Shown: piece after piece, positions 2,068-19,295 of the stretch
Position numbering within the stretch: position 1 is the stretch's first letter
How the letters are laid out: each line of letters begins with the position of its first letter
UHGV virus genome: UHGV-0209788
Reading direction: 5' to 3' (one strand)
Length of the DNA: 49,101 bases
Source: a virus
Position numbers and translations under genes: made by a program
The notes under the pieces: generated by a model
Told to the model about the DNA's origin: nothing
Seen by the model: the letters and a program-made list of their open reading frames with translations, nothing else
Databases searched by the model: none

Positions 2068-2083
2068 TGCCCGGAGAAAAGTG

Positions 2084-4588
2084 ATGTCTGAAAAAGCAGG
2101 CGAGATTTATTACGACATCGAGGCCGATGTTTCTGGCTTGCTCAAGGCGCAGGGAAAGGCCAATAAGTCGCTCGACTCCATCGGCAACTCGGCGACCAAT
2201 GCAGCCAAAAAGATGGATGAGTTGCAGACGAATATCAACCGCGTCGCCGGGGCAATTGCCGCCTCACTCGTTGTTGACTGGGGTAAGGCATTCCTCGTTG
2301 CTGCTGACAACATGAGCCAGCTCAACGCGCGTATAGAGAGGCTAACTGGTAGCGCAACAACAGCCTCGCAGACGATGCAGAATCTGATCCGTATCAGTTC
2401 GGCAACGGGTGGTTCGCTACAGGATACAGCGAAGCTGTGGGAGACTCTCAGCACTGCGTTGCGCGATACCGGAGCGACAAACGGCCAGATCATCCAGCTC
2501 ACCGAAACACTTCAGAAAATAGGTCGCATTGGCGGATCCTCGACAGAAGAAATGGCGAATGCTCTTCGTCAGTTCGGCCAGTCAATTTCATCCGGTACTG
2601 TCCGGGCTGAGGAGTTCAACTCCATCCTTGAGCAAATTCCTGAACTGGCGCGGCAGATCGCCGCCGGGATGGGCGTAAGTATCGGCGAACTGCGTCAACT
2701 GATGTTGGACGGGAAACTGACAGCAGAAGATGCGCTTAATGCCATCCAGAAACAAACCGGCTCAGTAAATGCAGAGTTCGAAAAACTTCCTCGCACTCTG
2801 GCTCAAGCCAATACCGCGCTGACAAACTCATTCCTGTCGATGATTGACTCTGTTAACCAGGCGACAGGCGCAAGCACAGGACTGGTTGCGGTTATCGACT
2901 CGATGACGGCTGCTCTCGACAGGCTGGTGGGGAAGGCAATCTCAGCGGATGCTCAGATATCGGATCTGAACAGCACCGCTGAAATGTTTACCCGCCGCGC
3001 GCGCACCTGGTCATGGCTTGGGCTTGATGGTTGGGAGGCGCAAAACAAAGCGCTGGCCGGGCTAAGCAATAAAGCCGCCATGCTGGTTGGCGACCTGGCC
3101 GCTGTTTCCAAAGCATCACAGACCGCGGCAAACACAAAACCGATCGAGATAAAGGCTGTTGCTGGTACAGGCAAAAAGAAAAAGACTCAGGCCGAAAAGG
3201 AAGCAGAAAAATATGCTAAGGCGCAGCAGACCGTTAACGAAAAGCTGGAAGAGCTTAGACAGAAGGCGCAACTTTCCGCAGGAAGCTTGGGTGAGTTGTC
3301 TCGTGCGCAAGCTGTTCTGAATGCTCAGCAGTCACTCGGTAGCGCTGCAACTCAAGCACAGATTAAAGAGGCTGGAGAATACGCCGCCAAAGCATGGGAT
3401 GCAGCAGCGGCAGCCAGAGGGGTAACTGAAGCACTTAAGGCAATCCCTTTGCAGGCGGAGAATAAATCCTACGCCGAATCCATGCAAAATCTGAAGGCCG
3501 CACTGAACGCTGGGAAAATAGATCTCAAGGAGTATAACGCTGCCACGGAGAAAATGGCGCTCGAGCACCAGAATAACCTCGCCAAGATTAACGCCCAGGC
3601 CACAGTCAATCCGGTAGCTTCTGCCCGAGCCGAAGTTGACCCGGTACAGCAACTGGTGAACGAAAATAACCAGAAGTTAGCCCTGATGCAGCAATATCAG
3701 CAGCAGGAACAGGCGATACTCCAGCAAAGTTACCAAAAAGGGAAAATAAATTACGATCAGTTCGTTGCTGCAAAGGCAGCTACCGATGCCCAGTACCTTG
3801 CCTTAAAGACTGCGCAGGAAAACCAGTTCAATGAGCAGATGACAGCCGCTCAGTGGCAATTGCTCAGTCAACAAGGTCTTGGTTATGAAATGCTGACAAG
3901 CGCGGTGGATGCGTTTTCAGGTAATGCATCTAATGCGTTAACCGGGCTGATCACCGGAACGATGTCAGCGCAGGATGCTATGCGTTCGCTCGGGAATACG
4001 ATGCTGAACAGCGTGGTAAATGCGCTAGTCCAGGTTGGGGTTGAGGCCCTCAAAAACTTCATTATAGGGCAGACATTGGGCGCAGCAGCTACTGCTGCTG
4101 GAGCATCTCAGGCTGCAATCTTGGCTACAGCTTGGGCTCCTGCCGCCGCCATGGCGAGCCTCGCTTCATTTGGGGCCAACTCAGTTCCTGCCATGACAGG
4201 AATTGCTTCAACGGTAGGCCTGGCACAGGGCCTTGCTTTAACCGGTATGCGTTACAATGGCGGCCCGGTGAATGCAGGAGGTCTTTATCAGGTCGGTGAG
4301 CGAGGGAAACCTGAGATTTACCAGGCCAGTACCGGTAAGCAGTACATGATACCGGGCGACAACGGCAAGGTGATCAGCAATAAGGATATGCAGGGTGGGG
4401 GAGGCATCAACGTTGTCTTAAATGTTCAGAACTATAACGGTTCATCAATAGATGCGCAGGCCAGTCCTGACGGCAATGGCGGCGTGACTGTGGATTTAAT
4501 CGTCGCTGACCTGAACAACGGCGGGCCAATCAGTAACGCCATAACCAGCAACATGAACGTTAAACGCACGCCAAGAGGGCAGGGCTGA
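2084..4588 (+). CDS. Tail tape measure protein
   Basis: 835-aa alpha-helical Ala/Gln-rich protein in the lambda H position. The C-terminus (GGPISNAITSNMNVKRTPRGQG) is lambda-H-like. Confidence 0.9.
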   Translation: MSEKAGEIYYDIEADVSGLLKAQGKANKSLDSIGNSATNAAKKMDELQTNINRVAGAIAASLVVDWGKAFLVAADNMSQLNARIERLTGSATTASQTMQNLIRISSATGGSLQDTAKLWETLSTALRDTGATNGQIIQLTETLQKIGRIGGSSTEEMANALRQFGQSISSGTVRAEEFNSILEQIPELARQIAAGMGVSIGELRQLMLDGKLTAEDALNAIQKQTGSVNAEFEKLPRTLAQANTALTNSFLSMIDSVNQATGASTGLVAVIDSMTAALDRLVGKAISADAQISDLNSTAEMFTRRARTWSWLGLDGWEAQNKALAGLSNKAAMLVGDLAAVSKASQTAANTKPIEIKAVAGTGKKKKTQAEKEAEKYAKAQQTVNEKLEELRQKAQLSAGSLGELSRAQAVLNAQQSLGSAATQAQIKEAGEYAAKAWDAAAAARGVTEALKAIPLQAENKSYAESMQNLKAALNAGKIDLKEYNAATEKMALEHQNNLAKINAQATVNPVASARAEVDPVQQLVNENNQKLALMQQYQQQEQAILQQSYQKGKINYDQFVAAKAATDAQYLALKTAQENQFNEQMTAAQWQLLSQQGLGYEMLTSAVDAFSGNASNALTGLITGTMSAQDAMRSLGNTMLNSVVNALVQVGVEALKNFIIGQTLGAAATAAGASQAAILATAWAPAAAMASLASFGANSVPAMTGIASTVGLAQGLALTGMRYNGGPVNAGGLYQVGERGKPEIYQASTGKQYMIPGDNGKVISNKDMQGGGGINVVLNVQNYNGSSIDAQASPDGNGGVTVDLIVADLNNGGPISNAITSNMNVKRTPRGQG

Positions 4589-5085
4589 TGCCAATTATCG
4601 ACTATCCCGACTGGCTGCCGCTGGCTCAGAAGGCCAGCAAAAACATGACTCTCGATACCGGGTTCCAGACCGATCAGCCAGCGGTCGGACCGGCTATCTT
4701 TGAGAATCAAACTGACGATCTGAAAGTGACCTGGTCACTGACGTGGATCTTCACTCTGGCTGAGGAACGAGCATTCCAGCAGTGGCTACGCAGCCCAAAC
4801 TATCTCAACCGGGGCCTGAACTGGTTCAGGATGAATATCAATCTGGGCGGCAGCGGCCTCCAGTTGCAGGAGCTTCACTTCACGCAGATGCCGGTGCAAA
4901 CCAGTATCGACGGCGGGGTGGTGACATGGACAGGAACCGTTATTGCCAACCATCTGTACAACGCTGACGACGAGTTTGACGACGTAATTGTTGAGCTGCC
5001 GCCGCCGTGGCCTTCAGTGCTTGATATCGTGGTGACTGGCTATCCGGACGGACGCGATCCGGAATCACTGCCGAGGGTGCCGTAA
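4588..5085 (+). CDS. Minor tail protein (distal tail assembly, M-like position)
   Basis: Translationally coupled (ATGA) to the tape measure protein. Assigned by synteny. Confidence 0.5.
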   Translation: MPIIDYPDWLPLAQKASKNMTLDTGFQTDQPAVGPAIFENQTDDLKVTWSLTWIFTLAEERAFQQWLRSPNYLNRGLNWFRMNINLGGSGLQLQELHFTQMPVQTSIDGGVVTWTGTVIANHLYNADDEFDDVIVELPPPWPSVLDIVVTGYPDGRDPESLPRVP

Positions 5086-5555
5086 TGCCGAGCTTCAGGG
5101 AGTATAAGCAGCAGCGCCCGACGCGCGGGCTGTACGACACCATCACGTTCCACCACCCCTCCTTTGGCTACGTCCGCCTAGTCGATAAGCAGTTCTTCCC
5201 GAAGACGCTTGGCGGACAGACATATACGCCAGCGCGTTTTGAAATCGAAGAAAGCCAGCAGAGTGGCACGCCGGTGATCGACGCGACGGTAAAGTTAGGG
5301 CGGCTTTCGTCGGACATCAAAGCGCTGATGAAGCAGTGGAAGGGAGCGGCTCGGCTAACAGCTATTACGGCCACGCGGCAGATATTCGACAGCGGCGATG
5401 TGTCGGTGCCGATTAAGTCGTGGCAGCTCTACGTCAAGACGGTGGACATCGACGCAGACTCCGCCTCGGTCACTCTGTCTGTCACCAACCCGCTGAACAA
5501 CAACATCGGAAGGCTCTATGACCCAACGGAATACACTGGCCTTCAGTACCTCTGA
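5085..5555 (+). CDS. Minor tail protein (L-like position)
   Basis: TAATG coupling. Assigned by synteny. Confidence 0.5.
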   Translation: MPSFREYKQQRPTRGLYDTITFHHPSFGYVRLVDKQFFPKTLGGQTYTPARFEIEESQQSGTPVIDATVKLGRLSSDIKALMKQWKGAARLTAITATRQIFDSGDVSVPIKSWQLYVKTVDIDADSASVTLSVTNPLNNNIGRLYDPTEYTGLQYL

Positions 5556-5934
5556 TTTTATCAGCAGGATGATCGGCGTGCCGTGGGCTAATAGGGCCTG
5601 TTCTTTCGAGAAAGTCGATTGCTGGGGTTTGGTGGTTCTGTATTACCGTCACGTACTCGGCATTGAGTTGCACCAGACGCCGGACTACGAAGCCGGGGCC
5701 GACTTCTTCACCTGCTATCAGGGCGACGTCGTTTTCTGGCGCAAGGTCGATAAACCGGTAGAGGGCGGGATATTCGTCGGGTACCGAGGCGCGCAACCGG
5801 CGCATGTTGGCCTGGTGCTGAACCGAAAAGCCATTCATGCGCGCGGGGAAAACGGAAGCGTGAAAGAGGATTCATTGCTGGTCATTCAGCGGGCATTCAC
5901 CAAAGTGGAGTACTTTTCGTATGGCGCTGGTTGA
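5518..5934 (+). CDS. Tail-associated NlpC/P60 family protein (K-like position)
   Basis: Contains a CWGLV catalytic-Cys motif and a downstream His typical of NlpC/P60. Position matches lambda K. Confidence 0.6.
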   Translation: MTQRNTLAFSTSDFISRMIGVPWANRACSFEKVDCWGLVVLYYRHVLGIELHQTPDYEAGADFFTCYQGDVVFWRKVDKPVEGGIFVGYRGAQPAHVGLVLNRKAIHARGENGSVKEDSLLVIQRAFTKVEYFSYGAG

Positions 5935-8398
5935 GATATCGAATTTTCCAGGAACGCCTAAGCTGCGTTGCAGGGTGCCAAACGGCACCCTTTTTTATGA
6001 CTGGCTGGCGGCCAATGACGCTACTTTCCACCGCGACCTGCTGATAGTCCGCAACGGCGTAAAGCTGGGTGACGAGGATGAACTGGCGTTTGAGCTGAGC
6101 GAGCTGGACCACGTCCAGATATTCGACCAGCCAAAGGGCATTGTCGGCGACATCCTGAGCCCTATATTCAAAGTAGTTGGCCAGGTGTTTTCGTTCCTGG
6201 CGCCGAAGCCCGCTATAGCAAACAACGGCGGTAATACCGTCGACTCGCCCAACAATAGCCTGACCGGTCAGACAAATACCGCTCGCGTTTACAAGGCAAA
6301 GCCGGACATTTACGGGCAGATTCGTTCGTTCCCGGATCTGATTCAGGAGTCGGTATTCGAATACGTGCACCAGACGTCCACCGACGGCGGCCTGAAGTGC
6401 GTTACAGAGTGGATGTGCATCGGAATCGGTAAATACGATTATGAGTCCGTGCGCTACTCAGAATCAAGCCTGGGCTCTCTGGCCGGTGCCGAATTCCAGT
6501 TCTTCCAGCCTGGCGAAGTAATCCCGCAGATCGTCGAGGGATACGGGTTCGATGACGTCGACGGGCAGGAGGTCCCCGGGCAGAACGAAGCCAGCGACTT
6601 CCCGATCGAAACAGCAACGGCAAACACGGTGGTCAGCGGAACGTATTCCGGCGGCCAGATAGCGATGAAAATCGTTAAGCAGGCTGAGTTCGACTATTTC
6701 ATGGGGCTGGTTCTGCCGCACGCTGTGACTTTCACCATCAACGTGACATACAGCACGGCCTCCGGCAACGTGACTACCGATGCGACATTCTCCGGTACGC
6801 TGATCTCCGCCGTTGAAACAAACGATGGCGCGGTTGTTAACCCGGTGCGCTGGTACACGTTTACGATGAACCAGCTGGAGGGGCCGCAGGACATCCCGGC
6901 GAACGCAACGATCAACACCACAAAGTTCATCCTGAACGATAACGAGGCGCTGGTGGTTGGGCCGTTCTTTTCCCCGGTCGAGTCTACGCAGCTGTGGCTT
7001 CATACCCAGTCCAGCCTGGGCGGCAAAAAGGAAACGAACTGGAAGGTGGTTATCTGGAAAATTGACGATGACTACAATCAGGTGCCGGGCACTCAGCAGA
7101 CGTTTACGTACCGGCAGACGACGCCGCACCAGTCTACCAGCGAAGTCTTCTACCGAACCGACAAAATCACTCCGACCGGCGGATTTGGAAAGTACGCGGT
7201 CAGCTTCCAGCGCACGGATAACTCCGGCGACGCGTCACTGCTCAAGGTCGAAGAAATCCATAGCATCAACATCAGGACAAACGTCGTTCACCCGACCGAC
7301 ACGCTGGTGCGCGTAAAAGTCCGGGCGACTGAGAACGCTCTTGGCAGCCGTGAGCGCAAATACAACGCGCTGGTGACGCGCCACACCATCACATACGACC
7401 TCGACACGCAAATGGTGGATTACACCCTGAGGCCGTCGCGCTCGTTCGCTGATGCGGTGGCGCATACCTGGCTGATTATGGGCGAGCAGCCGGTAAGCAG
7501 CATTGACCTGTACGGGCTGTACTCGATAGCCGAAAGCCTGCCGGATGAGCGCCTGGGTTACTTCGACTACACGTTCGACGACGAGAACGACTCACTGGGA
7601 GACCGCGTACAGGCGATCTGCAATGCTGCGTCGGTTGTGGCGTACTGGGACGACGGCGTGCTGACGTTTACCCGCGATCAGAAGGTTGACTACCCGGCGG
7701 CGGTATTCAACCGGGCCAACATGAAGACTGGCGAGTACAAAATGACGTACGAAGCTACTCTTCCAGGCGGTTATGACGGCGTGCAGGTGTCCTACGTCCA
7801 CCCGACCACGAACAATAAGACGTACATCAACTACCGCGTGCTGAACGGCGCCATAGTCGAGCAGGAAGCGGAAAACCCGAACAAGCTGGAGATAGTCGGC
7901 TTCCGTAACGAGTACCAGGCCCGAGAACGAGCTCTGCGAGAAACCAAGCGCCTGATTTACTCTCGGGTGAAGATGAACGCCAAAGTGTTTGAGGACGGCA
8001 TTATCCAGGTCGGTAGCGTCATTCAGATGCCCGACATCTACGACAGCAACCAGCAACAGGGTTACATCACCGGGCGCGCCGGTAATAACTTTGATACCAG
8101 CGAGCCGATCACGTTTACCGGTTCGATGTATGTGCTGGTGACCGACAGTCTGGGCAACCCGACGCTGCGCTATCCGGCCACGGCCCGAAGCGACACGAAG
8201 TATGGCTTCACTGCGGCAATACCCAACATACATCTCAACATATGGAACGGTGACACTGTGCAGCTACCGTCGCGCTATCTCATAGCGACGGTGGAGGAAC
8301 TGGACAGTCAGCTATGGACGGTCAACAGCATCAAACCGAACACCGATAACACGGTATCTCTGACCGTCGCAGAATACAGCGACGCCATCTACCAATAA
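5921..8398 (+). CDS. Tail tip / host specificity protein (J-like), possibly with a fused gpI-like N-terminal domain
   Basis: 825 aa and the last large tail gene before the fiber. Overlaps the previous gene. Confidence 0.6.
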   Translation: MALVEISNFPGTPKLRCRVPNGTLFYDWLAANDATFHRDLLIVRNGVKLGDEDELAFELSELDHVQIFDQPKGIVGDILSPIFKVVGQVFSFLAPKPAIANNGGNTVDSPNNSLTGQTNTARVYKAKPDIYGQIRSFPDLIQESVFEYVHQTSTDGGLKCVTEWMCIGIGKYDYESVRYSESSLGSLAGAEFQFFQPGEVIPQIVEGYGFDDVDGQEVPGQNEASDFPIETATANTVVSGTYSGGQIAMKIVKQAEFDYFMGLVLPHAVTFTINVTYSTASGNVTTDATFSGTLISAVETNDGAVVNPVRWYTFTMNQLEGPQDIPANATINTTKFILNDNEALVVGPFFSPVESTQLWLHTQSSLGGKKETNWKVVIWKIDDDYNQVPGTQQTFTYRQTTPHQSTSEVFYRTDKITPTGGFGKYAVSFQRTDNSGDASLLKVEEIHSINIRTNVVHPTDTLVRVKVRATENALGSRERKYNALVTRHTITYDLDTQMVDYTLRPSRSFADAVAHTWLIMGEQPVSSIDLYGLYSIAESLPDERLGYFDYTFDDENDSLGDRVQAICNAASVVAYWDDGVLTFTRDQKVDYPAAVFNRANMKTGEYKMTYEATLPGGYDGVQVSYVHPTTNNKTYINYRVLNGAIVEQEAENPNKLEIVGFRNEYQARERALRETKRLIYSRVKMNAKVFEDGIIQVGSVIQMPDIYDSNQQQGYITGRAGNNFDTSEPITFTGSMYVLVTDSLGNPTLRYPATARSDTKYGFTAAIPNIHLNIWNGDTVQLPSRYLIATVEELDSQLWTVNSIKPNTDNTVSLTVAEYSDAIYQ

Positions 8399-10919: not shown

Positions 10920-10947
10920 ATAACGCCCCTCTAAGGGGCGTTATTTT
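10920..10947. terminator. Bidirectional terminator between tailspike and gtrC
   Basis: Hairpin AACGCCCCT-ctaa-GGGGCGTT flanked by T/A runs on both strands. Confidence 0.6.
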
Positions 10948-12403
10948 ACATTCTATTTATATATATTCTGTACCCATCTTTGTATTTAATTAATTTAATA
11001 AGGCTATTGTTTTTCATAATCTCTCCATCTCCTTTAAACCTTTCATCTTTTGGTATAGGTGATGATATGCCATACTGTTTCATAAGGCTATACTTGAACC
11101 TGTAGTTTGCAAAGGCAGAACCTACAAGATATTGCGATACCGGAATAGCATCGTATGTTCTCTTGACAGAATCTGGATAAGACGGGAAGCCAGATATTAC
11201 TATCTTATCACCTGTTTTATAACCACATTCAATTAGGTTGTAGGCAATATTCTGAGCGACCACTCTGTCTATACGCTGATATATTTTGAAAGCATTCGAT
11301 ACTCCATATGCTTGGCTAAAATTGAAAGTAATAATTACCACAATCAATGATTTTGACAAAGCACCTAATTTACTCATCATTTCTACACCCTTTAGTAGTG
11401 CACAAAATGATAATCCAGCGGCTATCATCACTCTAGGCTCTACTATAGGGCTTTTCAAAACCAGATAAGGAGCAAATCCGAGAACTATTATTGCTACAAA
11501 TGCAAGCACTGAAAATGCAGTTATTTTATTTCTTTCTATTGATGAAATTACCAACATAATAATTATCAATGTTAACAAAATAATACTAGGAGCAAATGCG
11601 GTAACCTTGTAAAGCATATTTATAAACAATGAGAAATTATTTACAAATATCTTTAATCCATCAACTGAAAGTGGAATTAACTCAGAGTGAGTGTCCGTGT
11701 ATCCGGATGTATAGGAATCTCCATCAAAAAACACCAGCATCATTACTTTATAAAGCAAGAACGAAAAGAAAAGAGATGAAAATACCTTTAAGATTAAGTT
11801 AATAACATCATTTTTATTTTCATTGCAGCACCTCATAAAGCACATTAATGCAAGATAAGATAAAACGAATGGTATAGATGCCTGGTATATTGATATTGAA
11901 ATAAACCCAATCGCCACCGAACTAATCCAGCGGACAATACTTCTCTCTGCGCTCATCCTTGCCTGTAAAATAGCCCCGAGACAGGATAATGACATTATTA
12001 AAGAGTCAAACCTGAAATAAATATTACCAATGAATAAAGTTGAAGTCAGAGGTAGTAACATGCATGCTGCTTTAGCAATTGGGGATTTCAGGCTTAGCTC
12101 AACAGAGATAAGATACCCGCAAAAGATCATCACAAAGGCGCATAATATAATGGTAAGCGGGAAAACATCATATAAAACACCATCCCCAAAGAAATTTAAA
12201 CCTCCGCCAAACATGCTAATCGCAGCCATTATGACAGAGGAAAGAGGCCTCCCGTTACCCTCCCAAGCAGTAACTCCGGTATCAGTCCTAAGCCAATCAT
12301 CTACAACATAGTTGTTATTAATGATAAATGGCAATATGTATACAAATGATAGAGCCAGCGATATTAAAAATATAGACTTATCATTTTTCATATTTCTTAT
12401 CAT
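10946..12403 (-). CDS. gtrC: Serotype-specific O-antigen glucosyltransferase (GtrC-type polytopic membrane protein)
   Basis: 485-aa multi-TM protein, very AT-rich, directly downstream of gtrB. Typical variable third gene of gtr cassettes. Confidence 0.7.
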
Positions 12404-13317
12404 TTTCGTCCCTTCAGCACATAACGAGGTCTGTTTTTCACTTCCACGTAAATCCTTCCGATATACTCACCAAGAACTCCAATCCCAATCAACTGTATGC
12501 CTCCAAGAAAAAGGATAGACACAAGCAATGATGGATAGCCGCGAACTGCATTACCAAAGGCGAGGGTATCTATAATCATCCATGCACCATACAAAAACGC
12601 AGCACCGGCAACTAACAGGCCGATGTACGTCCACATGCGAAGCGGGAAAGTAGAGAAGCTGGTAATCCCCTCTAGGGCAAGGTTCCACAGTTTCCAGCCA
12701 TTAAATTTCGTGCTCCCGGCCACTCGCTCGGCCCTGGTATACTCAACAACATCGGTTCGCCCGCCAACCCAGCTCAGCACACCCTTCATGAACAGATTGC
12801 GTTCTGGCATTAGCTTAATGTTTTCCACTACCTCGCGAGACATCAGACGGAAGTCGCCAACGTTTTCTTCGATCTTTGGATTGCTGATTTTGTTGTGCAG
12901 CTTATAGAACCACTCAGCGGTCTTTCGTTTCAGGCGCCCGTCCGTAGAGCGGTCTGATCGCTTAGCCAGAACCATATCGGCCCCAGCCTGCCATTTCTCT
13001 ATCAGGTGCGGAATGACTTCGATAGGGTCCTGCAAGTCAACGTCAATAGGGATAATTGCTTCACCGGTGGCGTGATCAAGACCAGCGAAAAGAGCTGGCT
13101 CTTTACCAAAGTTGCGAGTGAACGACAGTGGAACCACAAGCGGATCGGCAACAGCAAGCGCGTTGATAATTGATTCTGTAGCGTCTTTGCTGCCGTCATT
13201 GATGAAGACTATCTCTACTTCATGCTGCTGAAGCCCTTCAAATTCCCGAACCGTTTTATAAAAAATAGGTATCGCGTCTTCTTCGTTGAAGACGGGAACG
13301 ACCAGAGAAATTTTCAT
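12400..13317 (-). CDS. gtrB: Bactoprenol glucosyltransferase (GT2)
   Basis: [13 protein letters not shown]...[10 protein letters not shown]2 signature plus C-terminal TM helices. Near-identical to the recalled P22 GtrB. Confidence 0.9.
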
Positions 13318-14417: not shown

Positions 14418-15581
14418 TTACGCCAGTTTCAAGCCAGCCTGATTTTCTCCTTGTGTCGTATTTGTGTCATGGTTGCCAAAAATGGCATCAATTTTCCGTG
14501 CGTGTTCGCTTAAGTGGTTCGGTGCCAGGTGAGCGTATCGACGGACCATTTCGATGGACTCCCAGCCGCCCATTTCTTGCAGAACGGACAACGGCACGCC
14601 GGACTGAATTAACCAGCTCGCCCAGGTATGCCGGAGGTCGTGAAAACGGAAGTCCTCTATACCCGCTCTTTCCAGTCCAATGCGCCAGGCGACATTGTCA
14701 TCCACTCGCATTTTTCGGACAGCCGGAGTGACGGTTTTATCCGGACGCGTAGATGGCTTCGTATGAACGAATACCCACCTGGAACTTTTCCCGATCTGAT
14801 CCCTTAACACCCTGCATGCGGTATCATTCAGAGCTACGCCGATAGCCTTGCCCGCCTTCGCGTTCTCCGGATTTACCCATGCAACCTTTCTCTGCATATC
14901 GACCTGCTGCCACTCCAGGTCAATGATGTTGGAGCGGCGCAGGCCGGTTGCCAGTGCAAATATCACCACCGGCTTTATCGACTCCGGCATGCAGGCAATT
15001 AACCTTTCTGCCTCGTCCCTGGTCAGCCATCGGATGCGTTTGCTGATCGGCTTTTTGGTTTTTATAACCGGGGCCGTTTTAATCCAGCCCCAGTCATTTG
15101 CCGCAGCCTTGAACAGAGATCGCATGAACGAAAGGTGCTGGCTCTTTGTGGCCTGGCTTACCGGCTTCTCAACATACGGAGGCGGTTCCTTCCCCCGTCG
15201 TATAGCCGCGTCCCGGCGCGACTCCCAGACCTGAATATGCTTACGGTTGACCATCTTCGAAACAGCCTCATGAACCTGATCAGCCGTGATGGTTGAAATA
15301 TCCCGGCCGGAGAAATGCCGCAGGAAATATTCGATTTTGGTCTTATCGTCATCGAGTGACCGCTTATGCTCCTTCTCGCGGATCCACCTGATGCAACATT
15401 CCTCAAACGTCCTCGTCGGTAGTTCCCCAATTTTATCAACCCGCCACGCTTCAGCCTTCAGCTTGTCGTGCAGCTCCTGCGCTTGTTTCTTGTCCCCCGT
15501 ACCAAGAGATCGTCTAATTCTTTTCCCTGACGGCGTAACGAAATGACAGTGCCAGACGCCGCCTCTGAGGGTGATTGACAT
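14418..15581 (-). CDS. int: Tyrosine integrase
   Basis: 387 aa with the C-terminal R...HxLRHT...Y catalytic signature ([11 protein letters not shown]...RRYAHL). Adjacent to the tRNA-fragment att site. Confidence 0.95.
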
Positions 15582-15793
15582 AAAATTTCTCCTTTATGTT
15601 CACCCGCGCTCGCGGAAACAGGATCGCGCGGGTCATGTAAATACGCAATACAGGCAACGTCGGTTGTGCGGTATTTGTTCCCGATCTTCTTCCCGGCCAG
15701 CTGCCCCGAGTCGATAAGACGGTAGACAGTTCTCGGTGAGGTGATTAGTAGCTCGGCCGCCTGTCTGGCTGTCAGTGTTTTTGCCTCAACCAT
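15458..15793 (-). CDS. xis: Excisionase (AlpA/Xis-type HTH)
   Basis: [35 protein letters not shown]. Overlaps the int 5' end as in lambda and P22. Confidence 0.7.
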
Positions 15794-15903
15794 GCATTTC
15801 CTCCAGGCAAAAAAGAACCCGGCGCGGGGCCGGGCAAAAGGGATCACGAGGTGGCGCTTTCGCACCCAATAGCCAGCTCATAACTGGCTATCAGTTGCGT
15901 GAG

Positions 15904-16164
15904 TTAGATTTGCGATCGGTTATTCCGCTTCACCGCGAAGTTTCCGGTCAGCGCGCTGCTGATTGGGCCGCCGTTTTTCAGGTCTGAAACGATGATATCG
16001 ACGGTCAGCCCTTCGCTTGCCATTTCGTTATCAATTGGCTCATTGTCCTCTAGCGCGTCACGGAAAGACGCGGCGACAATCTTCCCACCCATAAACGACA
16101 TGCCAGCGCTAACAGGCGGCTCTTTACCGTCCTCATACTCAAATACGAACGTCATCTTTCCCAT
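15904..16164 (-). CDS. Small protein homologous to the C-terminal end of the tape measure protein
   Basis: LTVDIIVSDLKNGGPISSALTGNFAVKRNNRSQ compared with the tape measure C-terminus VTVDLIVADLNNGGPISNAITSNMNVKRTPRGQ. Strong RBS GAGGAGAAATT-ATG. Confidence 0.6.
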   Translation of the reverse strand: MGKMTFVFEYEDGKEPPVSAGMSFMGGKIVAASFRDALEDNEPIDNEMASEGLTVDIIVSDLKNGGPISSALTGNFAVKRNNRSQI

Positions 16165-16173
16165 AATTTCTCC

Positions 16174-16413
16174 TCATGCAGCACGCTGGGCGCGCAGCTT
16201 CTTCAGGTGATCTGCTGTTTCGATTTCTTCGGCGATCCGCTCGGCCTGTGCTTTGGTCAGCGGCTCGAAATCCTGATTAAAGCGGCCCATGCTGGCGATA
16301 CAGGTGCGACCGTTGCGGATGTAGTGGATTACTTCGTGGGTAGAGCGGAGGATTTTGCATGGCGCGCCGTGGGGATCGGCGTACCAGGTATTAGGCTGGA
16401 TTATCCTGAACAT
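16174..16413 (-). CDS. Hypothetical protein
   Basis: ATG 16413 has an AAGGTGG RBS. The ORF track start at 16422 is a GTG. Confidence 0.4.
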   Translation of the reverse strand: MFRIIQPNTWYADPHGAPCKILRSTHEVIHYIRNGRTCIASMGRFNQDFEPLTKAQAERIAEEIETADHLKKLRAQRAA

Positions 16414-16888
16414 TGGGACCACCTTTGACGAAGATCACCCAGTGGGTTTTGTCTGACTTGCCGGTGCGCTGCCAGATGATCGGCTTCTCGTCGGTAAGCG
16501 CCAGGATATTGCTTACCGGGATCTGCGTTTCGTTCCATTTGAAGATGAGCACACCGTGTGGCCACAACACCCTGAACGCTTCGGCGAAGCCTGCACGCAA
16601 ATCGTCGCGCCATGTTTCTTTGTTGAGCCGGCCGTACTTTTTCCCCATCCATGCATTATCACCGACACGCTCAAGGTGCGGCGGATCGAACACGACGACA
16701 GGGAAAGTGTTATCGCCAAAAGGGAGGGCGCGGAAATCGGCAATAAGGTCCGGGCTAATAACCAACTGGCGTCCGTCGCAAAGTTCATGCTGCTCGGCGC
16801 GGATATCACTGAACACGGCGCGCTCGTCCTGCTTGTCGAGCCAGAACATGCGCGACCCGCAGCACATGTCTAAAATTGCCTTTTGCAT
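16391..16888 (-). CDS. Orphan DNA methyltransferase (N6A/N4C class, DPPH motif)
   Basis: Motif I-like DMCCGSR and motif IV VVFDPPH. Confidence 0.65.
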   Translation of the reverse strand: MQKAILDMCCGSRMFWLDKQDERAVFSDIRAEQHELCDGRQLVISPDLIADFRALPFGDNTFPVVVFDPPHLERVGDNAWMGKKYGRLNKETWRDDLRAGFAEAFRVLWPHGVLIFKWNETQIPVSNILALTDEKPIIWQRTGKSDKTHWVIFVKGGPNVQDNPA

Positions 16889-17106
16889 TACAATCCCCTC
16901 TGCTTATTCTTCAACTCAATGACGCCCTGGCACTCCGCGCACGTCTGGCAGCCTGGAACGGCAGCGCGCCGCGGCTCCGGGATATCCTCTCCGCATTCCA
17001 CACAATGCTCAGCTGATACGGCGTTGCGGTTTAACCGGTGAGCGGAAAGGGCAGCGTTACGCTGAAGCTCTTCAATCTCTGCTGCGGTGTCGATGATGTC
17101 AGCCAT
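16888..17106 (-). CDS. TraR/DksA family C4 zinc finger protein
   Basis: CVECGEDIP...CQTCAEC motif. Start at ATG 17106 (MADIID) with an AGGAG RBS. Confidence 0.7.
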   Translation of the reverse strand: MADIIDTAAEIEELQRNAALSAHRLNRNAVSAEHCVECGEDIPEPRRAAVPGCQTCAECQGVIELKNKQRGL

Positions 17107-17284
17107 TTCGTGCTCTCCTGCGTTTCTTGGCGGCTCGACGCGCCGCTGCAATGCCAGTCTTCCCGCCGCTAACCGGGTAACTATGTCCGGTACATAGAGA
17201 AGGGGGAATTTCTGCGATGCTGCACGGTTTAATCGAAGCCAGAGTGCCGGCCATGACAGCTAATGCTATGGATGTTCGTTTCAT
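17099..17284 (-). CDS. Small secreted/basic protein, unknown
   Basis: Signal-peptide-like N-terminus, GGAG RBS, and its own upstream terminator. Size and basic C-terminus make it uncertain. Confidence 0.3.
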   Translation of the reverse strand: MKRTSIALAVMAGTLASIKPCSIAEIPPSLCTGHSYPVSGGKTGIAAARRAAKKRRRARNG

Positions 17285-17335
17285 GGGTGCTCCCGGAACT
17301 GTCGGTTAATTCGGTTGAAGGTGAACGCCAGCAAT

Positions 17336-17356
17336 AAAAAAGGAGCCTTAAGCTCC
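17336..17356 (-). terminator. Rho-independent terminator (leftward transcripts)
   Basis: Hairpin GGAGC-cttaa-GCTCC with a T-run on the minus strand. Confidence 0.45.
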
Positions 17357-17372
17357 TGGGTGATTAGTGCCT

Positions 17373-17564
17373 TCATGCTGCACCGCCTTCATTCTTCTCG
17401 GCTTCGACCGCCATCTGCTCAAGCCGTCGCGATAACTCGGCGGCCAGAGTCTGGAACTCTTCCTCGGTCGCCACCGGGATCGGCACAAAGCGAATCCCGA
17501 TGTGCGCCAGGGGGTTGGCGATGTCGAGGCTTTTCCTCAAATCAACGGGTGCGGCTCGGTTCAT
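17373..17564 (-). CDS. Hypothetical protein
   Basis: 63-aa ORF, ATGA-coupled to the upstream gene. Confidence 0.35.
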   Translation of the reverse strand: MNRAAPVDLRKSLDIANPLAHIGIRFVPIPVATEEEFQTLAAELSRRLEQMAVEAEKNEGGAA

Positions 17565-17932: not shown

Positions 17933-18071
17933 TTTTCTTGTGATGCTTGTTGATGATGGGAGGCACCGTTTCGTTCCAGTTTGGCTTTGGCTTCTTGCGC
18001 ATGGCCTGCTGGATTTCCTCGGTGCAGCGGCGGCAGGCTGCGCGAATGGCGTTTTCTGATTCTGGTCTCAT
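17853..18071 (-). CDS. Hypothetical protein
   Basis: 72-aa ORF. Confidence 0.3.
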   Translation of the reverse strand: MRPESENAIRAACRRCTEEIQQAMRKKPKPNWNETVPPIINKHHKKIEALGVSLLEFVVYTGRLNRRFGVES

Positions 18072-18664
18072 GCGGCCTCCGTTTTCACAACATCGATGGC
18101 GCAGCCGGGTAGCAATTTTCTGGCTGCTAACTCGTTTTCATGTGGAAAGTTAAGTCGCGCATATGCGCCGAATAGCTCTCGAGCAGATTCATCGTAAGCA
18201 TGAGCAGCCTCTTCAGCCGAACGGTAGTATCCAAGGTGGCGGCGCTCACGGCCTATTGTGATATTTGCACGGTATGGTTTTGATAAGTTTTTAGACCGAG
18301 ATACGCCTTTATATCCCGTTAAATTCGCTCTGCTTAACTCTCGGTTGTGCTGGTTCTGATTTAGCGTAGCCAGACGCAAATTGGACCATCGGTTATTCGT
18401 ACCGTCATTATCAACATGATCGATGTGATACTTTGGCCATTCACCTGTCACCATCAGCCAAATGAGGCGATGCGCGCGATAGAGGCGGCCAATCCTAACT
18501 TTGACGTAAAGCTTTCTACCGTTCCCACAAACCGAGCCAGCAACACTACCTTTCTGGACTTTTTTGCGACAAGTCTTCCAGGTCAGCAGCCCTGTTGTGG
18601 GGTCATATTCCAGAAGCTCTCTAACCATTTCGGCAGTTAATTCAGGGCAGTTTCTACTCGGCAT
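18068..18664 (-). CDS. HNH endonuclease with AP2 DNA-binding domain
   Basis: HIDHVDNDGTNNRWSNLRLATLNQNQHN HNH motif plus AP2-like YKGVSR...YRANI...EEAAHAYD. Start at ATG 18664 with a GGGAG RBS. Confidence 0.75.
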   Translation of the reverse strand: MPSRNCPELTAEMVRELLEYDPTTGLLTWKTCRKKVQKGSVAGSVCGNGRKLYVKVRIGRLYRAHRLIWLMVTGEWPKYHIDHVDNDGTNNRWSNLRLATLNQNQHNRELSRANLTGYKGVSRSKNLSKPYRANITIGRERRHLGYYRSAEEAAHAYDESARELFGAYARLNFPHENELAARKLLPGCAIDVVKTEAA

Positions 18665-19295
18665 TTTCATATCTCCCAGGAACAAGCTTCACATCGCCAT
18701 CAACTTCATTCCCCCAAGCATCCCAGCCCGGCGCCGCGCTGCGGCTGAATAACTCAATGCGTGGCACATCACCGTAAAGCAGTTCCAGACGGTGGCGCAC
18801 TTCCCACGGCTTTTCGCTGTGCGCGCCGAGCGGGCTGTAGACCACCTGCTTAATCCCGGCATGCTTTCGCTCCAGCCCGGCGCCTCTGGTAGCAATCAGC
18901 AGATCTTCGGTATTTGCCCGGGTGTGGTTTCCTCCGTTCATGCGCGTCTCGGCGTTAAGCAGATCGAGGAAGTCGTAAAAGTCGGTGACTTCACCCTCGG
19001 CCAGCGCCTTGTTGATACGCAGTTCGGCATTCTGATTCAACTTCACCCAGGTAAATCCCTTCATCGTGCGGACGGTAAAGCCCCAGGCCTCAGCCAGTTC
19101 GATGGCCTCCTGGTTATGCGTGCCGGTGTACCACATCGCCAGCACCGCGTTTTCAGCGGCAAGCTCCCATACCGGCAGGCGCTTGATGTCGATGAGCTTC
19201 ATGGTGGAGTAGTGGTCGGCGGCGGCCCCGTTACTGATGGTATTGCCGTAAGACCAAGGCGGATCGACATACAGAAGTGAGTATTTCGCTGTCAT
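18654..19295 (-). CDS. MT-A70 family DNA N6-adenine methyltransferase
   Basis: YVDPPWSY motif IV. Overlaps the HNH gene start by 11 nt. Confidence 0.8.
   Translation of the reverse strand: MTAKYSLLYVDPPWSYGNTISNGAAADHYSTMKLIDIKRLPVWELAAENAVLAMWYTGTHNQEAIELAEAWGFTVRTMKGFTWVKLNQNAELRINKALAEGEVTDFYDFLDLLNAETRMNGGNHTRANTEDLLIATRGAGLERKHAGIKQVVYSPLGAHSEKPWEVRHRLELLYGDVPRIELFSRSAAPGWDAWGNEVDGDVKLVPGRYENAE

What the first reader, a model, noticed from the sequence alone, without database searches (positions are those of the whole stretch)
15904..16164. Early-operon small protein that mimics the C-terminal end of the phage's own tape measure protein
The 86-aa product (strong RBS GAGGAGAAATT-ATG) ends ...LTVDIIVSDLKNGGPISSALTGNFAVKRNNRSQI. 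This is clearly homologous to the last ~35 residues of the tape measure protein in the same genome (VTVDLIVADLNNGGPISNAITSNMNVKRTPRGQG), and the preceding ~40 residues show weaker similarity. The tape measure C-terminus is the part that enters the host envelope to form the DNA conduit and contacts inner-membrane factors. A free-standing copy expressed from the pL operon in a cell could compete with incoming tape measure proteins for that contact. That would be a superinfection-exclusion mechanism acting at DNA injection. Alternatively it is a relic of illegitimate recombination, but the intact start, the RBS and the clean ORF argue for selection.
Basis: seen in the sequence. Interest (0 to 1): 0.65.

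Follow-up and report, generated by a model that had tools for sequence, protein, structure and literature searches.

The report
Early phage protein carrying tape-measure plug
A small early gene of this temperate Enterobacter-type phage ends in a conserved copy of the short helical segment that anchors the tape measure protein inside the tail tip; its function is untested, but it may jam tail assembly in rival phages.

Summary
The core observation is real. The 86-aa ORF (15904-16164, minus strand) ends in 34 residues that are 65% identical to the C-terminus of the window's tape measure protein (TMP) (E 2e-12; z 16 against shuffles). The claimed weaker similarity of the preceding ~40 residues is not supported. 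Those residues are a separate 40-aa module, found in many small early phage proteins with other tails.

The copied piece matches the only ordered part of the homologous TMP in Shigella phage Sf11 (PDB 9OCC). That part is a helical C-terminus embedded in the tail-tip hub. AlphaFold predicts the same hairpin, and its only PDB fold hit is 9occ_M.

The tail is under purifying selection (pN/pS 0.29). It occurs in three versions that parallel TMP subtypes, one made by recombination with a TMP locus.

The ORF is not tied to the phage's own TMP. Two of five phages carrying it have lambda-type TMP ends and tips, and one decayed prophage has no tail genes.

The protein is soluble, acidic and lacks its own promoter. 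This argues against exclusion at the membrane.

My favoured reading (about 0.3) is a cytoplasmic plug mimic that interferes with tail-tip assembly. Function is untested.

The parts
15904..16164 (-). 86-aa chimeric small early ORF (stop codon included)
   Evidence: Homologues at 86-99% identity (P0001-P0011) plus more diverged chimeric forms. 17 IMG/VR loci carry it.
16045..16164 (-). Codons 1-40: conserved N-terminal module (MGKMTFVFEYEDGKEPPVSAGMSFMGGKIVAASFRDALE), shared with 59-61-aa, ~80-aa, DUF551-like-fused and CxxC-tailed relatives
   Evidence: phrog_3876 and phrog_6925 hits. Alignments. pN/pS 0.12. No Pfam, NCBIfam or PADLOC hit.
16012..16044 (-). Codons 41-51: acidic linker and fusion junction. 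Residues 44-51 may be the start of the TMP-derived piece.
   Evidence: AF2 pLDDT about 51 here. Gapped alignment to TMP ...DAQA.S.DGNGG. The junction differs in the 82-aa form.
15907..16011 (-). Codons 52-86: TMP-C-terminus-like tail, predicted as a helix-turn-helix (helices 55-64 and 67-76)
   Evidence: BLASTP E 2e-12. Shuffle z 16. AF2. Foldseek finds only 9occ_M, prob 0.94, TM 0.74. pN/pS 0.29.
16170..16175 (-). Ribosome-binding site GAGGAG, overlapping the TGA stop (16174-16176) of the upstream DUF4222 gene
   Evidence: Read from the sequence.
15808..15835 (-). Intrinsic-terminator-like hairpin GCCCGGCCCCGCGCCGGGT plus a T-run, between the ORF stop and the xis start
   Evidence: No sigma-70-like promoter anywhere in 15400-17400.
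16174..16422 (-). Upstream DUF4222 gene; a DUF4222 gene is the upstream neighbour in the related prophages whose gene tables were read
   Evidence: Pfam PF13973, E 3.9e-16. Same neighbour in L003-L008 and in the E. coli remnant L010.
15458..15793 (-). Excisionase-like HTH_17 gene (start inferred at ATG 15793)
   Evidence: Pfam HTH_17. A 111-aa ORF (not annotated in the record) lies at the same place in HK639.
14418..15581 (-). Tyrosine integrase
   Evidence: Near-identical integrase in HK639 and ENT1.
2081..4588 (+). Tape measure protein, 835 aa
   Evidence: Pfam TMP_3, E 1.8e-57. phrog_1107 and phrog_1538. Residues 700-829 align to Sf11 gp18 646-776, E 5e-35.
4481..4585 (+). TMP codons 801-835: the segment homologous to the ORF tail. 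It corresponds to Sf11 gp18 residues 749-780, the only TMP residues ordered in the virion, embedded in the tail tip.
   Evidence: PMC12724387, Table 1 and text.
4588..5085 (+). Distal tail protein (N-terminal domain only, 165 aa), homologue of Sf11 gp17
   Evidence: 9occ_C, E 3.5e-62.
5085..5555 (+). Baseplate hub protein 1, homologue of Sf11 gp16; candidate partner of the TMP C-terminus
   Evidence: 9occ_F, E 1.2e-45. phrog_396.
5921..8398 (+). Baseplate hub protein 2, homologue of Sf11 gp14; candidate partner of the TMP C-terminus
   Evidence: 9occ_E, E 9e-251. phrog_469.

Best explanation
The ORF encodes a soluble, acidic, two-module cytoplasmic protein. It is made from the leftward early operon after infection or induction.

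Module 1 (residues 1-40) is a conserved small domain of unknown activity. Related phages attach it to many different C-terminal pieces. Module 2 (residues ~44-86) is a captured copy of the C-terminal helical hairpin of Sf11/chi-type tape measure proteins. In the virion, three copies of that hairpin sit embedded in the tail-tip hub.

I infer that the tail keeps the one binding activity known for this segment: docking into the hub formed by the BH1P and BH2P proteins. If so, the free protein would occupy newly made hubs in the cytoplasm and compete with the TMP trimer, which must dock there to start tail-tube assembly. The expected result is fewer or no tails for phages with this hub type. That would be tail-assembly interference by a dominant-negative plug mimic, aimed mainly at co-resident or co-infecting rival phages.

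Shown: homology, fold prediction, selection, repeated exchange with TMP genes, cytoplasmic character, operon position, and presence in phages whose own tail is of another type.

Inferred: hub binding, competition with TMP, and any effect on rival or own tails.
For: 1. The tail corresponds exactly to the TMP segment resolved in the Sf11 tail tip. Only gp18 residues 749-780 are modelled, described as an alpha-helical C-terminus embedded in the tip, three copies per virion (PMC12724387). ORF residues 51-81 align to gp18 747-777. The AF2 model of the tail has only 9occ_M as a PDB fold hit.
2. The window's tip proteins are clear homologues of the Sf11 hub proteins (E 9e-251, 1e-45, 3.5e-62). The known partner of this segment therefore exists in this phage lineage.
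3. The tail is conserved as protein. Among 86-aa alleles pN/pS is 0.29. Against the closest TMP alleles pS is about 0.45-0.5 (equal to the TMP-TMP median of 0.52) while pN is only 0.15-0.2. The capture is therefore old and the motif has been kept.
4. TMP-like tails arose or were renewed several times.
   - The 82-aa form has a different junction, a synonymously saturated tail, and an N-module dS of only 0.35. Its tail is closer to TMPs (44.7 bits) than to the 86-aa tails (40.4 bits).
   - P0012 is 100% identical to an 86-aa allele over nt 1-195. It then switches to an A2-type TMP end plus about 58 nt of TMP downstream flank.
5. The protein is cytoplasmic (no signal peptide or TM segment, pI 4.5). 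That is the compartment where hubs assemble.
6. Two phages with the ORF have lambda-type TMP ends and M/L-type tip genes. There a type-A mimic could harm only other phages.
7. Tail-assembly interference by small prophage- and satellite-encoded proteins is an established strategy: the Tai systems (PMC11364771).
Against: - No binding or phenotype data exist. No complex model could be computed with the tools available.
- Three of the five phages (including the window) have a type-A TMP and hub themselves, so the product should poison their own tails. Timing, dosage or allele specificity would have to protect them.
- The only hint of such protection is that the two phages with an A1 TMP carry the allele changed at two TMP-invariant positions (SDLKNGGP). 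That is a single allele, so a single event.
- The N-module carries many unrelated tails in relatives. The tail may therefore be an interchangeable structural appendage.
- Once homology with TMP genes exists, in-frame recombinants can arise without selection.
- There is no sequence relationship to Tai proteins, and the gene is not at the loci where Tai genes are found.
- If the gene is expressed only early in the lytic cycle, it cannot protect a lysogen population the way Tai does.
Confidence: 0.3

Rival explanations
1. Exapted structural appendage. The TMP-derived hairpin was recruited only as a convenient small helical or oligomerising unit for the N-terminal module, which does the real (unknown) job. 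It has no functional connection with tape measure proteins, hubs or DNA entry.
For: The N-module is the more strongly conserved part (pN/pS 0.12 against 0.29). In relatives it is joined to at least five other kinds of C-terminal piece: short acidic helices, ~80-aa helical tails, a DUF551-like domain and a CxxC tail. The ORF occurs in phages with lambda-type tails and in a remnant with no tail genes. TMP C-termini sit as three copies in a C3 tip, so the segment might self-associate.
Against: The tail has been exchanged with TMP genes at least twice more and still keeps the TMP motif after synonymous saturation. The positions kept are those conserved across TMP alleles: T-V-D-x-I-V-x-D-L-x-x-G-G-P-x-S...N...K-R. 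None of the other tail types matches any other phage protein, so the TMP-like tail is a special case and not the rule.
Confidence: 0.25
2. One reading: superinfection exclusion at DNA entry. The free tail competes with the C-terminus of incoming tape measure proteins for an envelope or inner-membrane contact and blocks injection.
For: The TMP C-terminus lies at the very tip of the tail. From general knowledge of siphophage ejection it should leave first. Exclusion proteins that act through the TMP are known: HK97 gp15, and Ltp of TP-J34 (cited in PMC11364771; hit list). Presence of the ORF in phages with another TMP type would fit a weapon against others.
Against: There is no signal peptide, lipobox or membrane segment, and the protein is acidic and soluble. 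It could therefore meet an incoming TMP only if that end reaches the cytoplasm. No promoter-like site lies upstream and the gene sits in the early lytic operon, so expression in a lysogen is not expected. No host contact is documented for this segment. The phage already carries gtr O-antigen conversion genes for exclusion at the surface.
Confidence: 0.08
3. Decoy for a host factor or defence sensor that recognises the TMP C-terminus. The early protein soaks up the sensor (or a protease or chaperone) before the late TMP is made.
For: Early expression before late structural genes. Bacterial STAND sensors that detect TMPs exist: Avs18 (PMC13581612). The modular N-domain-plus-peptide design would suit a decoy family.
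Against: The one characterised TMP sensor binds a central ~130-residue helical segment, not the C-terminus. A decoy would be useless to the two carrier phages whose own TMP lacks this end. There is no PADLOC or other family hit.
Confidence: 0.1
4. Non-functional by-product. An illegitimate recombination event fused a TMP 3' end to a small early gene, and the tail is carried along neutrally.
For: Phage early regions are mosaics and the ORF is a cassette with junctions just outside it. Recombination with TMP loci demonstrably occurs.
Against: Sixteen of 17 IMG/VR copies are full length, and the seventeenth stops three codons early. pN/pS of the tail is 0.29. Synonymous divergence from every sampled TMP is as large as among TMPs, yet the motif is retained. 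The ORF stays intact in an E. coli remnant whose flanking int and DUF4222 genes are frameshifted.
Confidence: 0.07

Closest known systems
C-terminal hub-embedded segment of Sf11/chi-type tape measure proteins (Shigella phage Sf11 gp18 residues 749-780, PDB 9OCC chain M)
   Same: Sequence homology of ORF residues 51-85. Same predicted helical hairpin (Foldseek prob 0.94, TM 0.74, rmsd 2.5 A). Same conserved motif T-V-D-x-I-V-x-D-L-x-N-G-G-P-I-S.
   Different: It is free-standing on an 86-aa early protein, not the end of a 780-980-aa TMP. It lacks the TMP_3 domain, is encoded on the opposite strand about 11 kb from the tail genes, and its extreme end differs (KRNNRSQI against KRTPRGQG).
Tai (tail assembly inhibition) systems of prophages, PICIs and P4-like satellites (He et al. 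2024, PMC11364771)
   Same: Proteins encoded by mobile genetic elements. They stop rival phages from making tails and act in the cytoplasm on a tail-tip component. Some carrier phages own the very target and need self-protection. This is the functional analogy I propose.
   Different: [quoted passage not shown] They are not described as copies of a phage structural segment. They are expressed in the prophage state and usually sit upstream of the packaging genes. No homology to them was shown here, and no phenotype is known for this ORF.
Exclusion proteins acting on DNA entry or the TMP (HK97 gp15, Ltp of TP-J34, lactococcal Sie2009, P22 SieA)
   Different: From general knowledge and the cited papers, those are membrane or surface proteins made in the lysogen. 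This ORF is soluble and acidic, has no promoter of its own, and lies in an early lytic operon.
Small early proteins of PHROG 3876 / 6925 (59-61-aa, ~80-aa and DUF551-like-fused forms; function unknown)
   Same: Residues 1-40 are a bona fide member of this module family (E 1.6e-11 and 8e-9). In the prophages whose neighbourhood was examined, the gene occupies the same slot, after the DUF4222 gene and before xis.
   Different: The usual short acidic tail is replaced by a TMP-derived hairpin. Only a minority carry it: 17 of 56 IMG/VR loci.

Membership tests
Tape measure protein (Sf11/chi-type) | Homology to the C-terminal hub-embedded segment | tested here: met
   E 2e-12 to the window's own TMP. 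Aligns to Sf11 gp18 747-777. Fold hit 9occ_M.
Tape measure protein (Sf11/chi-type) | Long helical body with a TMP_3 domain, encoded between the tail chaperone and distal tail protein genes | tested here: not met
   86 aa, no Pfam hit. Located in the early-left operon next to xis/int, on the opposite strand. It is a fragment copy, not a TMP.
PHROG 3876 / 6925 small early proteins | Conserved N-terminal ~40-residue module MGKMTFVFEYEDGKEP...GGKIVAA.FRD | tested here: met
   PHROG hits over residues 1-40 and 3-60. 100-bit-range HMM scores with relatives. Alignment A2.
PHROG 3876 / 6925 small early proteins | Position: distal early-left operon, downstream of a DUF4222 gene and upstream of xis/int | tested here: met
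   Window; L003-L008 and L010. Some module relatives with other C-domains lie elsewhere.
Tai tail-assembly-inhibition systems | Sequence homology to Tai proteins | not tested
   No Tai sequences were available to the tools. PADLOC v2.0.0 (2023, predates Tai) gives no hit.
Tai tail-assembly-inhibition systems | Expression blocks tail formation and yields tailless capsids | not testable with these tools
   Needs induction assays and electron microscopy.
Tai tail-assembly-inhibition systems | [quoted passage not shown] | tested here: not met
   The gene lies in the early-left operon with no promoter-like site in 15400-17400. The promoter scan is consensus-based only.
Superinfection exclusion proteins acting at DNA entry | Membrane or envelope localisation (TM segment, signal peptide or lipobox) | tested here: not met
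   Maximum 19-residue Kyte-Doolittle hydropathy 0.89, pI 4.5, acidic N-terminus.
Superinfection exclusion proteins acting at DNA entry | Expression from the repressed prophage | tested here: inconclusive
   No sigma-70-like promoter found; the ORF is coupled to upstream early genes and followed by a terminator. No expression data.
Superinfection exclusion proteins acting at DNA entry | Reduces plating or DNA entry of target phages without blocking adsorption | not testable with these tools
   Needs plating-efficiency and potassium-efflux assays.
Decoy of the TMP-sensing STAND receptor Avs18 | Contains the central ~130-residue helical TMP segment that is necessary and sufficient for sensing | tested here: not met
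   The ORF matches only the last ~35-43 TMP residues. The sensed segment is central (PMC13581612).

The most novel reading that the evidence does not exclude
A family of soluble early phage proteins has repeatedly captured the hub-plug peptide of tape measure proteins. It uses the peptide as a warhead that occupies the tail-tip hub of rival prophages and stops their tail assembly. The warhead is refreshed by recombination with TMP genes. Carrier phages escape either by having a different tip type or by allele-specific changes in the mimic. This would be molecular mimicry of a virion assembly interface used for phage-against-phage competition.
Probability: 0.25. Interest if true: 0.8.

Novelty: new variant of a known kind. 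Interest (0 to 1): 0.58.

Why it matters
If the tail really docks into the hub, this would be the first case I know of where a phage keeps a free copy of a tape-measure assembly interface as a competitive inhibitor. It would add mimicry of a structural protein to the known ways mobile elements sabotage each other's tails (Tai). It would also supply a 35-residue peptide that could be engineered to block assembly of a defined tail-tip class.

It would give a direct handle on an open question: how the TMP C-terminus is recognised by the tip complex when tail assembly starts.

Even if the function turns out to be unrelated, the locus is a clean natural example of domain capture and repeated gene conversion between a late structural gene and an early accessory gene. 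It shows that TMP end modules (A1, A2, B) travel with the tip type.

Tried and rejected
1. Similarity of the N-terminal half to the TMP: not significant. An HMM run that seemed to link the N-module to TMPs was an artefact of TMP fragments in alignment A3. The clean HMM hits no TMP.
2. Search of 1.84 billion representative proteins with the 43-aa tail: only a TMP fragment and a WD40 false positive. No other small-protein family with this tail was seen. Sensitivity is limited by 50% clustering and query length.
3. Word-index search with the TMP C-terminus returned only short TMP fragments. It was useful for defining end modules A and B but gave no full-length proteins.
4. No phage record in INPHARED carries the chimeric ORF. 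ENT1 and HK639 have other genes in the slot.
5. E. coli complete genomes: one copy, in a decayed prophage without tail genes.
6. GTDB species representatives: one distant N-module hit only.
I then walked along IMG/VR contigs and reached the TMP in four carrier phages. The TMP of the prophages with the 82-aa form was not reached.
8. Other tail types of the family (59, 61 and 80 aa) were tested as possible mimics of other phage proteins: no significant hit. The best was E 0.06, to a TMP coiled-coil region, judged compositional.
9. Avs18-decoy idea: the sensed TMP segment is central, not C-terminal.
10. Recent transfer from the resident TMP: rejected. pS to any sampled TMP is about 0.45-0.5.
11. 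The chi structure paper (PMC11246221) is not held. Contact details of the TMP end inside the hub could therefore not be read.

Full report
**What is at the coordinates**

The window is laid out like a lambdoid vegetative map. Tail genes come first: the TMP at 2081..4588, tip genes to 8398 and a tail spike to 10916. Then come gtrC/gtrB on the minus strand and the integrase at 14418..15581. The leftward early operon follows on the minus strand.

The ORF of the finding is on the minus strand at 15904..16164 (86 aa, ATG). Its GAGGAG ribosome-binding site overlaps the stop codon of the upstream DUF4222 gene (16174..16422). Downstream lie a palindrome and a strong terminator-like hairpin (15835-15817 plus a T-run), and then the excisionase-like gene. 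No sigma-70-like promoter is found anywhere in 15400-17400. So 'early-operon small protein' fits the layout. The gene looks like the last cistron of the early-left transcript before xis/int.

**Check of the observation**

ORF residues 52-85 align without gaps to TMP residues 801-834: 22/34 identical, E 2e-12.
- It is the only significant match of the ORF in the six-frame window.
- It scores 114 against 33.9 +/- 4.9 for shuffles.
- At DNA level, 73 of 117 aligned bases are identical.

This fails (p 0.06-0.12). Residues 1-40 match PHROG 3876 and 6925, small phage proteins of unknown function.

**What the two halves are**

A protein search found 108 relatives. All share MGKMTFVFEYEDGKEPPVSAGM.FMGGKIVAA.FRDALE and then diverge:
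- Most are 59-61 aa with a short acidic tail.
- Some are ~80 aa with another helical tail.
- A minority carry a TMP-like tail of 86, 84 or 82 aa.

Further relatives join the same module to a DUF551-like domain or a CxxC tail. The ORF is therefore a chimera: a promiscuous 40-aa N-module, an acidic linker, and a TMP-derived tail.

The TMP end has a solved relative. Window TMP residues 700-829 align to Shigella phage Sf11 gp18 (PDB 9OCC chain M) at E 5e-35. In that cryo-EM study only gp18 residues 749-780 are ordered. The authors describe an alpha-helical C-terminus embedded in the tail tip, three copies per virion (PMC12724387). ORF residues 51-81 align to gp18 747-777.

AlphaFold2 gives mean pLDDT 72:
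- an N-module with little regular secondary structure;
- a low-confidence linker;
- two helices, 55-64 and 67-76.

Its only Foldseek hit in the PDB is 9occ_M (prob 0.94, TM 0.74, rmsd 2.5 A). The window's tip proteins are homologues of the Sf11 distal tail protein and the two hub proteins (E 3.5e-62, 1.2e-45, 9e-251). The copied piece is thus the TMP segment that is embedded in the tail tip.

**Is the tail maintained?**

IMG/VR holds 17 loci with the 86-aa form. Sixteen are full length and one ends three codons early. There are also 37 loci with short forms.
- Among 86-aa alleles, pN/pS is 0.12 for the N-module and 0.29 for the tail.
- The commonest tail (GLTVDIIVADLNNGGPISSALTGNFSVKRNARSQ) is 76.5% identical to a TMP allele.
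- Nucleotide identity to any sampled TMP is only 0.74-0.77. pS is about 0.45-0.5, the same as between TMP alleles (median 0.52). pN is 0.15-0.2, against 0.05 among TMPs.

The capture is therefore old. The motif has been kept under relaxed but real constraint.

**Repeated traffic with TMP genes**

The 82-aa form has an N-module only modestly diverged from the 86-aa form (dS 0.35). Its linker is unrelated and its tail is synonymously saturated. That tail is closer to TMP ends (44.7 bits) than to the 86-aa tails (40.4 bits).

P0012 (84 aa) is 100% identical to one 86-aa allele for nt 1-195. It then switches, just after the conserved AACAACGGCGGCCC core, to an end of the A2 TMP subtype (…GGPASQAIATNHQAPRKARA). 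The similarity to a TMP locus continues about 58 nt past the stop codon.

Either selection favours TMP-like ends, or the shared ~100 bp simply permits in-frame gene conversion. Both readings are possible.

**Link to the phage's own TMP**

TMP ends are modular. After the conserved …QYMIPGDNGKVISNKDM they finish as type A1, A2 or B.

| Phage or locus carrying the ORF | Own TMP end | Tip type |
|---|---|---|
| Window | A1 | Sf11-type |
| 3300022879_000173 (ORF identical to the window's) | A1 | Sf11-type distal tail protein |
| 3300027606_000092 | A2 | Sf11-type |
| 3300045988_057844 | B (…RPNGMLEKSR) | lambda M/L-like genes |
| 2751185932_000007 | B (…RPNGMLEKSR) | not read beyond the TMP end |
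| E. coli FLI21 prophage remnant | no tail genes | none |

In the FLI21 remnant the ORF is intact. Conversely, phages whose TMP end is 97-99% identical to the window's lack the ORF. At least six phages with the short form have A1 TMPs. The ORF is therefore not a companion of a particular resident TMP.

**Mechanism**

The protein is acidic and soluble and has no export signal. The only partner known for the copied segment is the hub, which assembles in the cytoplasm. My best-supported inference is that the tail docks into Sf11/chi-type hubs and competes with the TMP. This would resemble Tai-like tail-assembly interference (PMC11364771), achieved by a dominant-negative mimic and useful mainly against rival phages.

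The main difficulty is self-poisoning in the three carriers with type-A tails. The two A1 carriers share an allele altered at two TMP-invariant positions (SDLKNGGP). That is suggestive, but it is a single event.

Rivals:
- an exapted structural or oligomerising appendage with no TMP-related role (nearly as likely);
- a decoy for a host sensor, but Avs18 reads a central TMP segment and not the end (PMC13581612);
- a neutral relic, disfavoured by the selection data.

**Comparison and novelty**

The tail belongs to the TMP C-terminal segment family by homology, but the protein is not a TMP. The N-module places it in PHROG 3876/6925. It is not shown to be a Tai or Sie protein. My literature searches found no description of a free-standing TMP-end copy in an early gene. 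I rate it a new variant of a known kind, namely phage-encoded interference with rival virion function. Function is unproven.

**Verdict**

The homology is real and statistically robust. The structural interpretation is sharpened: the copied piece is the hub-embedded segment of the TMP. The evolutionary signal shows the tail is maintained. Interest is moderate to high because a concrete, testable mimicry hypothesis follows.

Noticed in passing
window 4178-4588; L588 16338-19268; L503 15028-17964; L632 16981-19371: Tape measure proteins of these phages end in interchangeable modules after the conserved ...QYMIPGDNGKVISNKDM motif. The modules are A1 (..NVKRTPRGQG), A2 (..NHQAPRKARS) and B (..RPNGMLEKSR, lambda-H-like). 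In the loci examined, A goes with Sf11/chi-type tip genes and B with lambda M/L-like tip genes, although the tail tube and chaperone genes upstream are nearly the same.
   Followed up: partly
L001 2977-3318 (Enterobacter phage ENT1); L293, L374, L469, L484: The 40-aa N-terminal module of the ORF is also found fused to a DUF551-like domain (113-115 aa) and to a CxxC...C tail (~85 aa), sometimes elsewhere in the early region. It behaves as a promiscuous N-terminal module of unknown function.
   Followed up: partly
window 15904-16164 versus L016-L025 alleles: The window's allele has SDLKNGGP where TMPs and most ORF alleles have ADLNNGGP. This allele was found in the two carrier phages whose own TMP is type A1. 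The canonical allele sits in carriers with A2 or B TMPs. Only one allele lineage is involved, so this is a hint and not a test.
   Followed up: partly
L010 (E. coli FLI21, NZ_CP139808.1 4594759-4595019): An 86-aa copy (93% nucleotide identity) is intact in a ~12-kb decayed prophage. The remnant holds gtr genes, an IS5 and bet/exo. Its integrase and DUF4222 genes are frameshifted and it has no tail genes.
   Followed up: partly
L583 252-575 (protein P0012): This 84-aa allele has its last 19 codons, plus ~58 nt of 3' flank, replaced by sequence homologous to the 3' end and downstream flank of an A2-type TMP gene (L157, L215). The crossover is at the conserved AACAACGGCGGCCC core.
   Followed up: yes
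window 15869-15891: Perfect 8-bp palindrome ATAGCCAG-N7-CTGGCTAT immediately 3' of the ORF stop and upstream of the terminator at 15835-15817. Possible RNA processing or protein-binding site.
   Followed up: no
window 10946-13317 (minus strand): GtrC-like and GtrB-like O-antigen conversion genes lie between the tail spike gene and the integrase. This is a surface-level exclusion or seroconversion cassette.
   Followed up: no
window 16391-16888 and 18068-18685 (minus strand): The early-left operon contains a DNA methyltransferase-like ORF that matches only positions 51-203 of its 229-position PHROG profile, so it may be N-terminally truncated. It also contains an HNH endonuclease gene.
   Followed up: no
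protein P0015 (144 aa): In some genomes the DUF4222 gene and the chimeric ORF are fused into a single 144-aa reading frame.
   Followed up: no
window as a whole: The window starts inside the tail genes and ends in head/connector genes, with the integrase in the middle. It looks like a circularly permuted or vegetative phage genome rather than an integrated prophage. No record in the INPHARED phage collection holds the chimeric ORF.
   Followed up: partly
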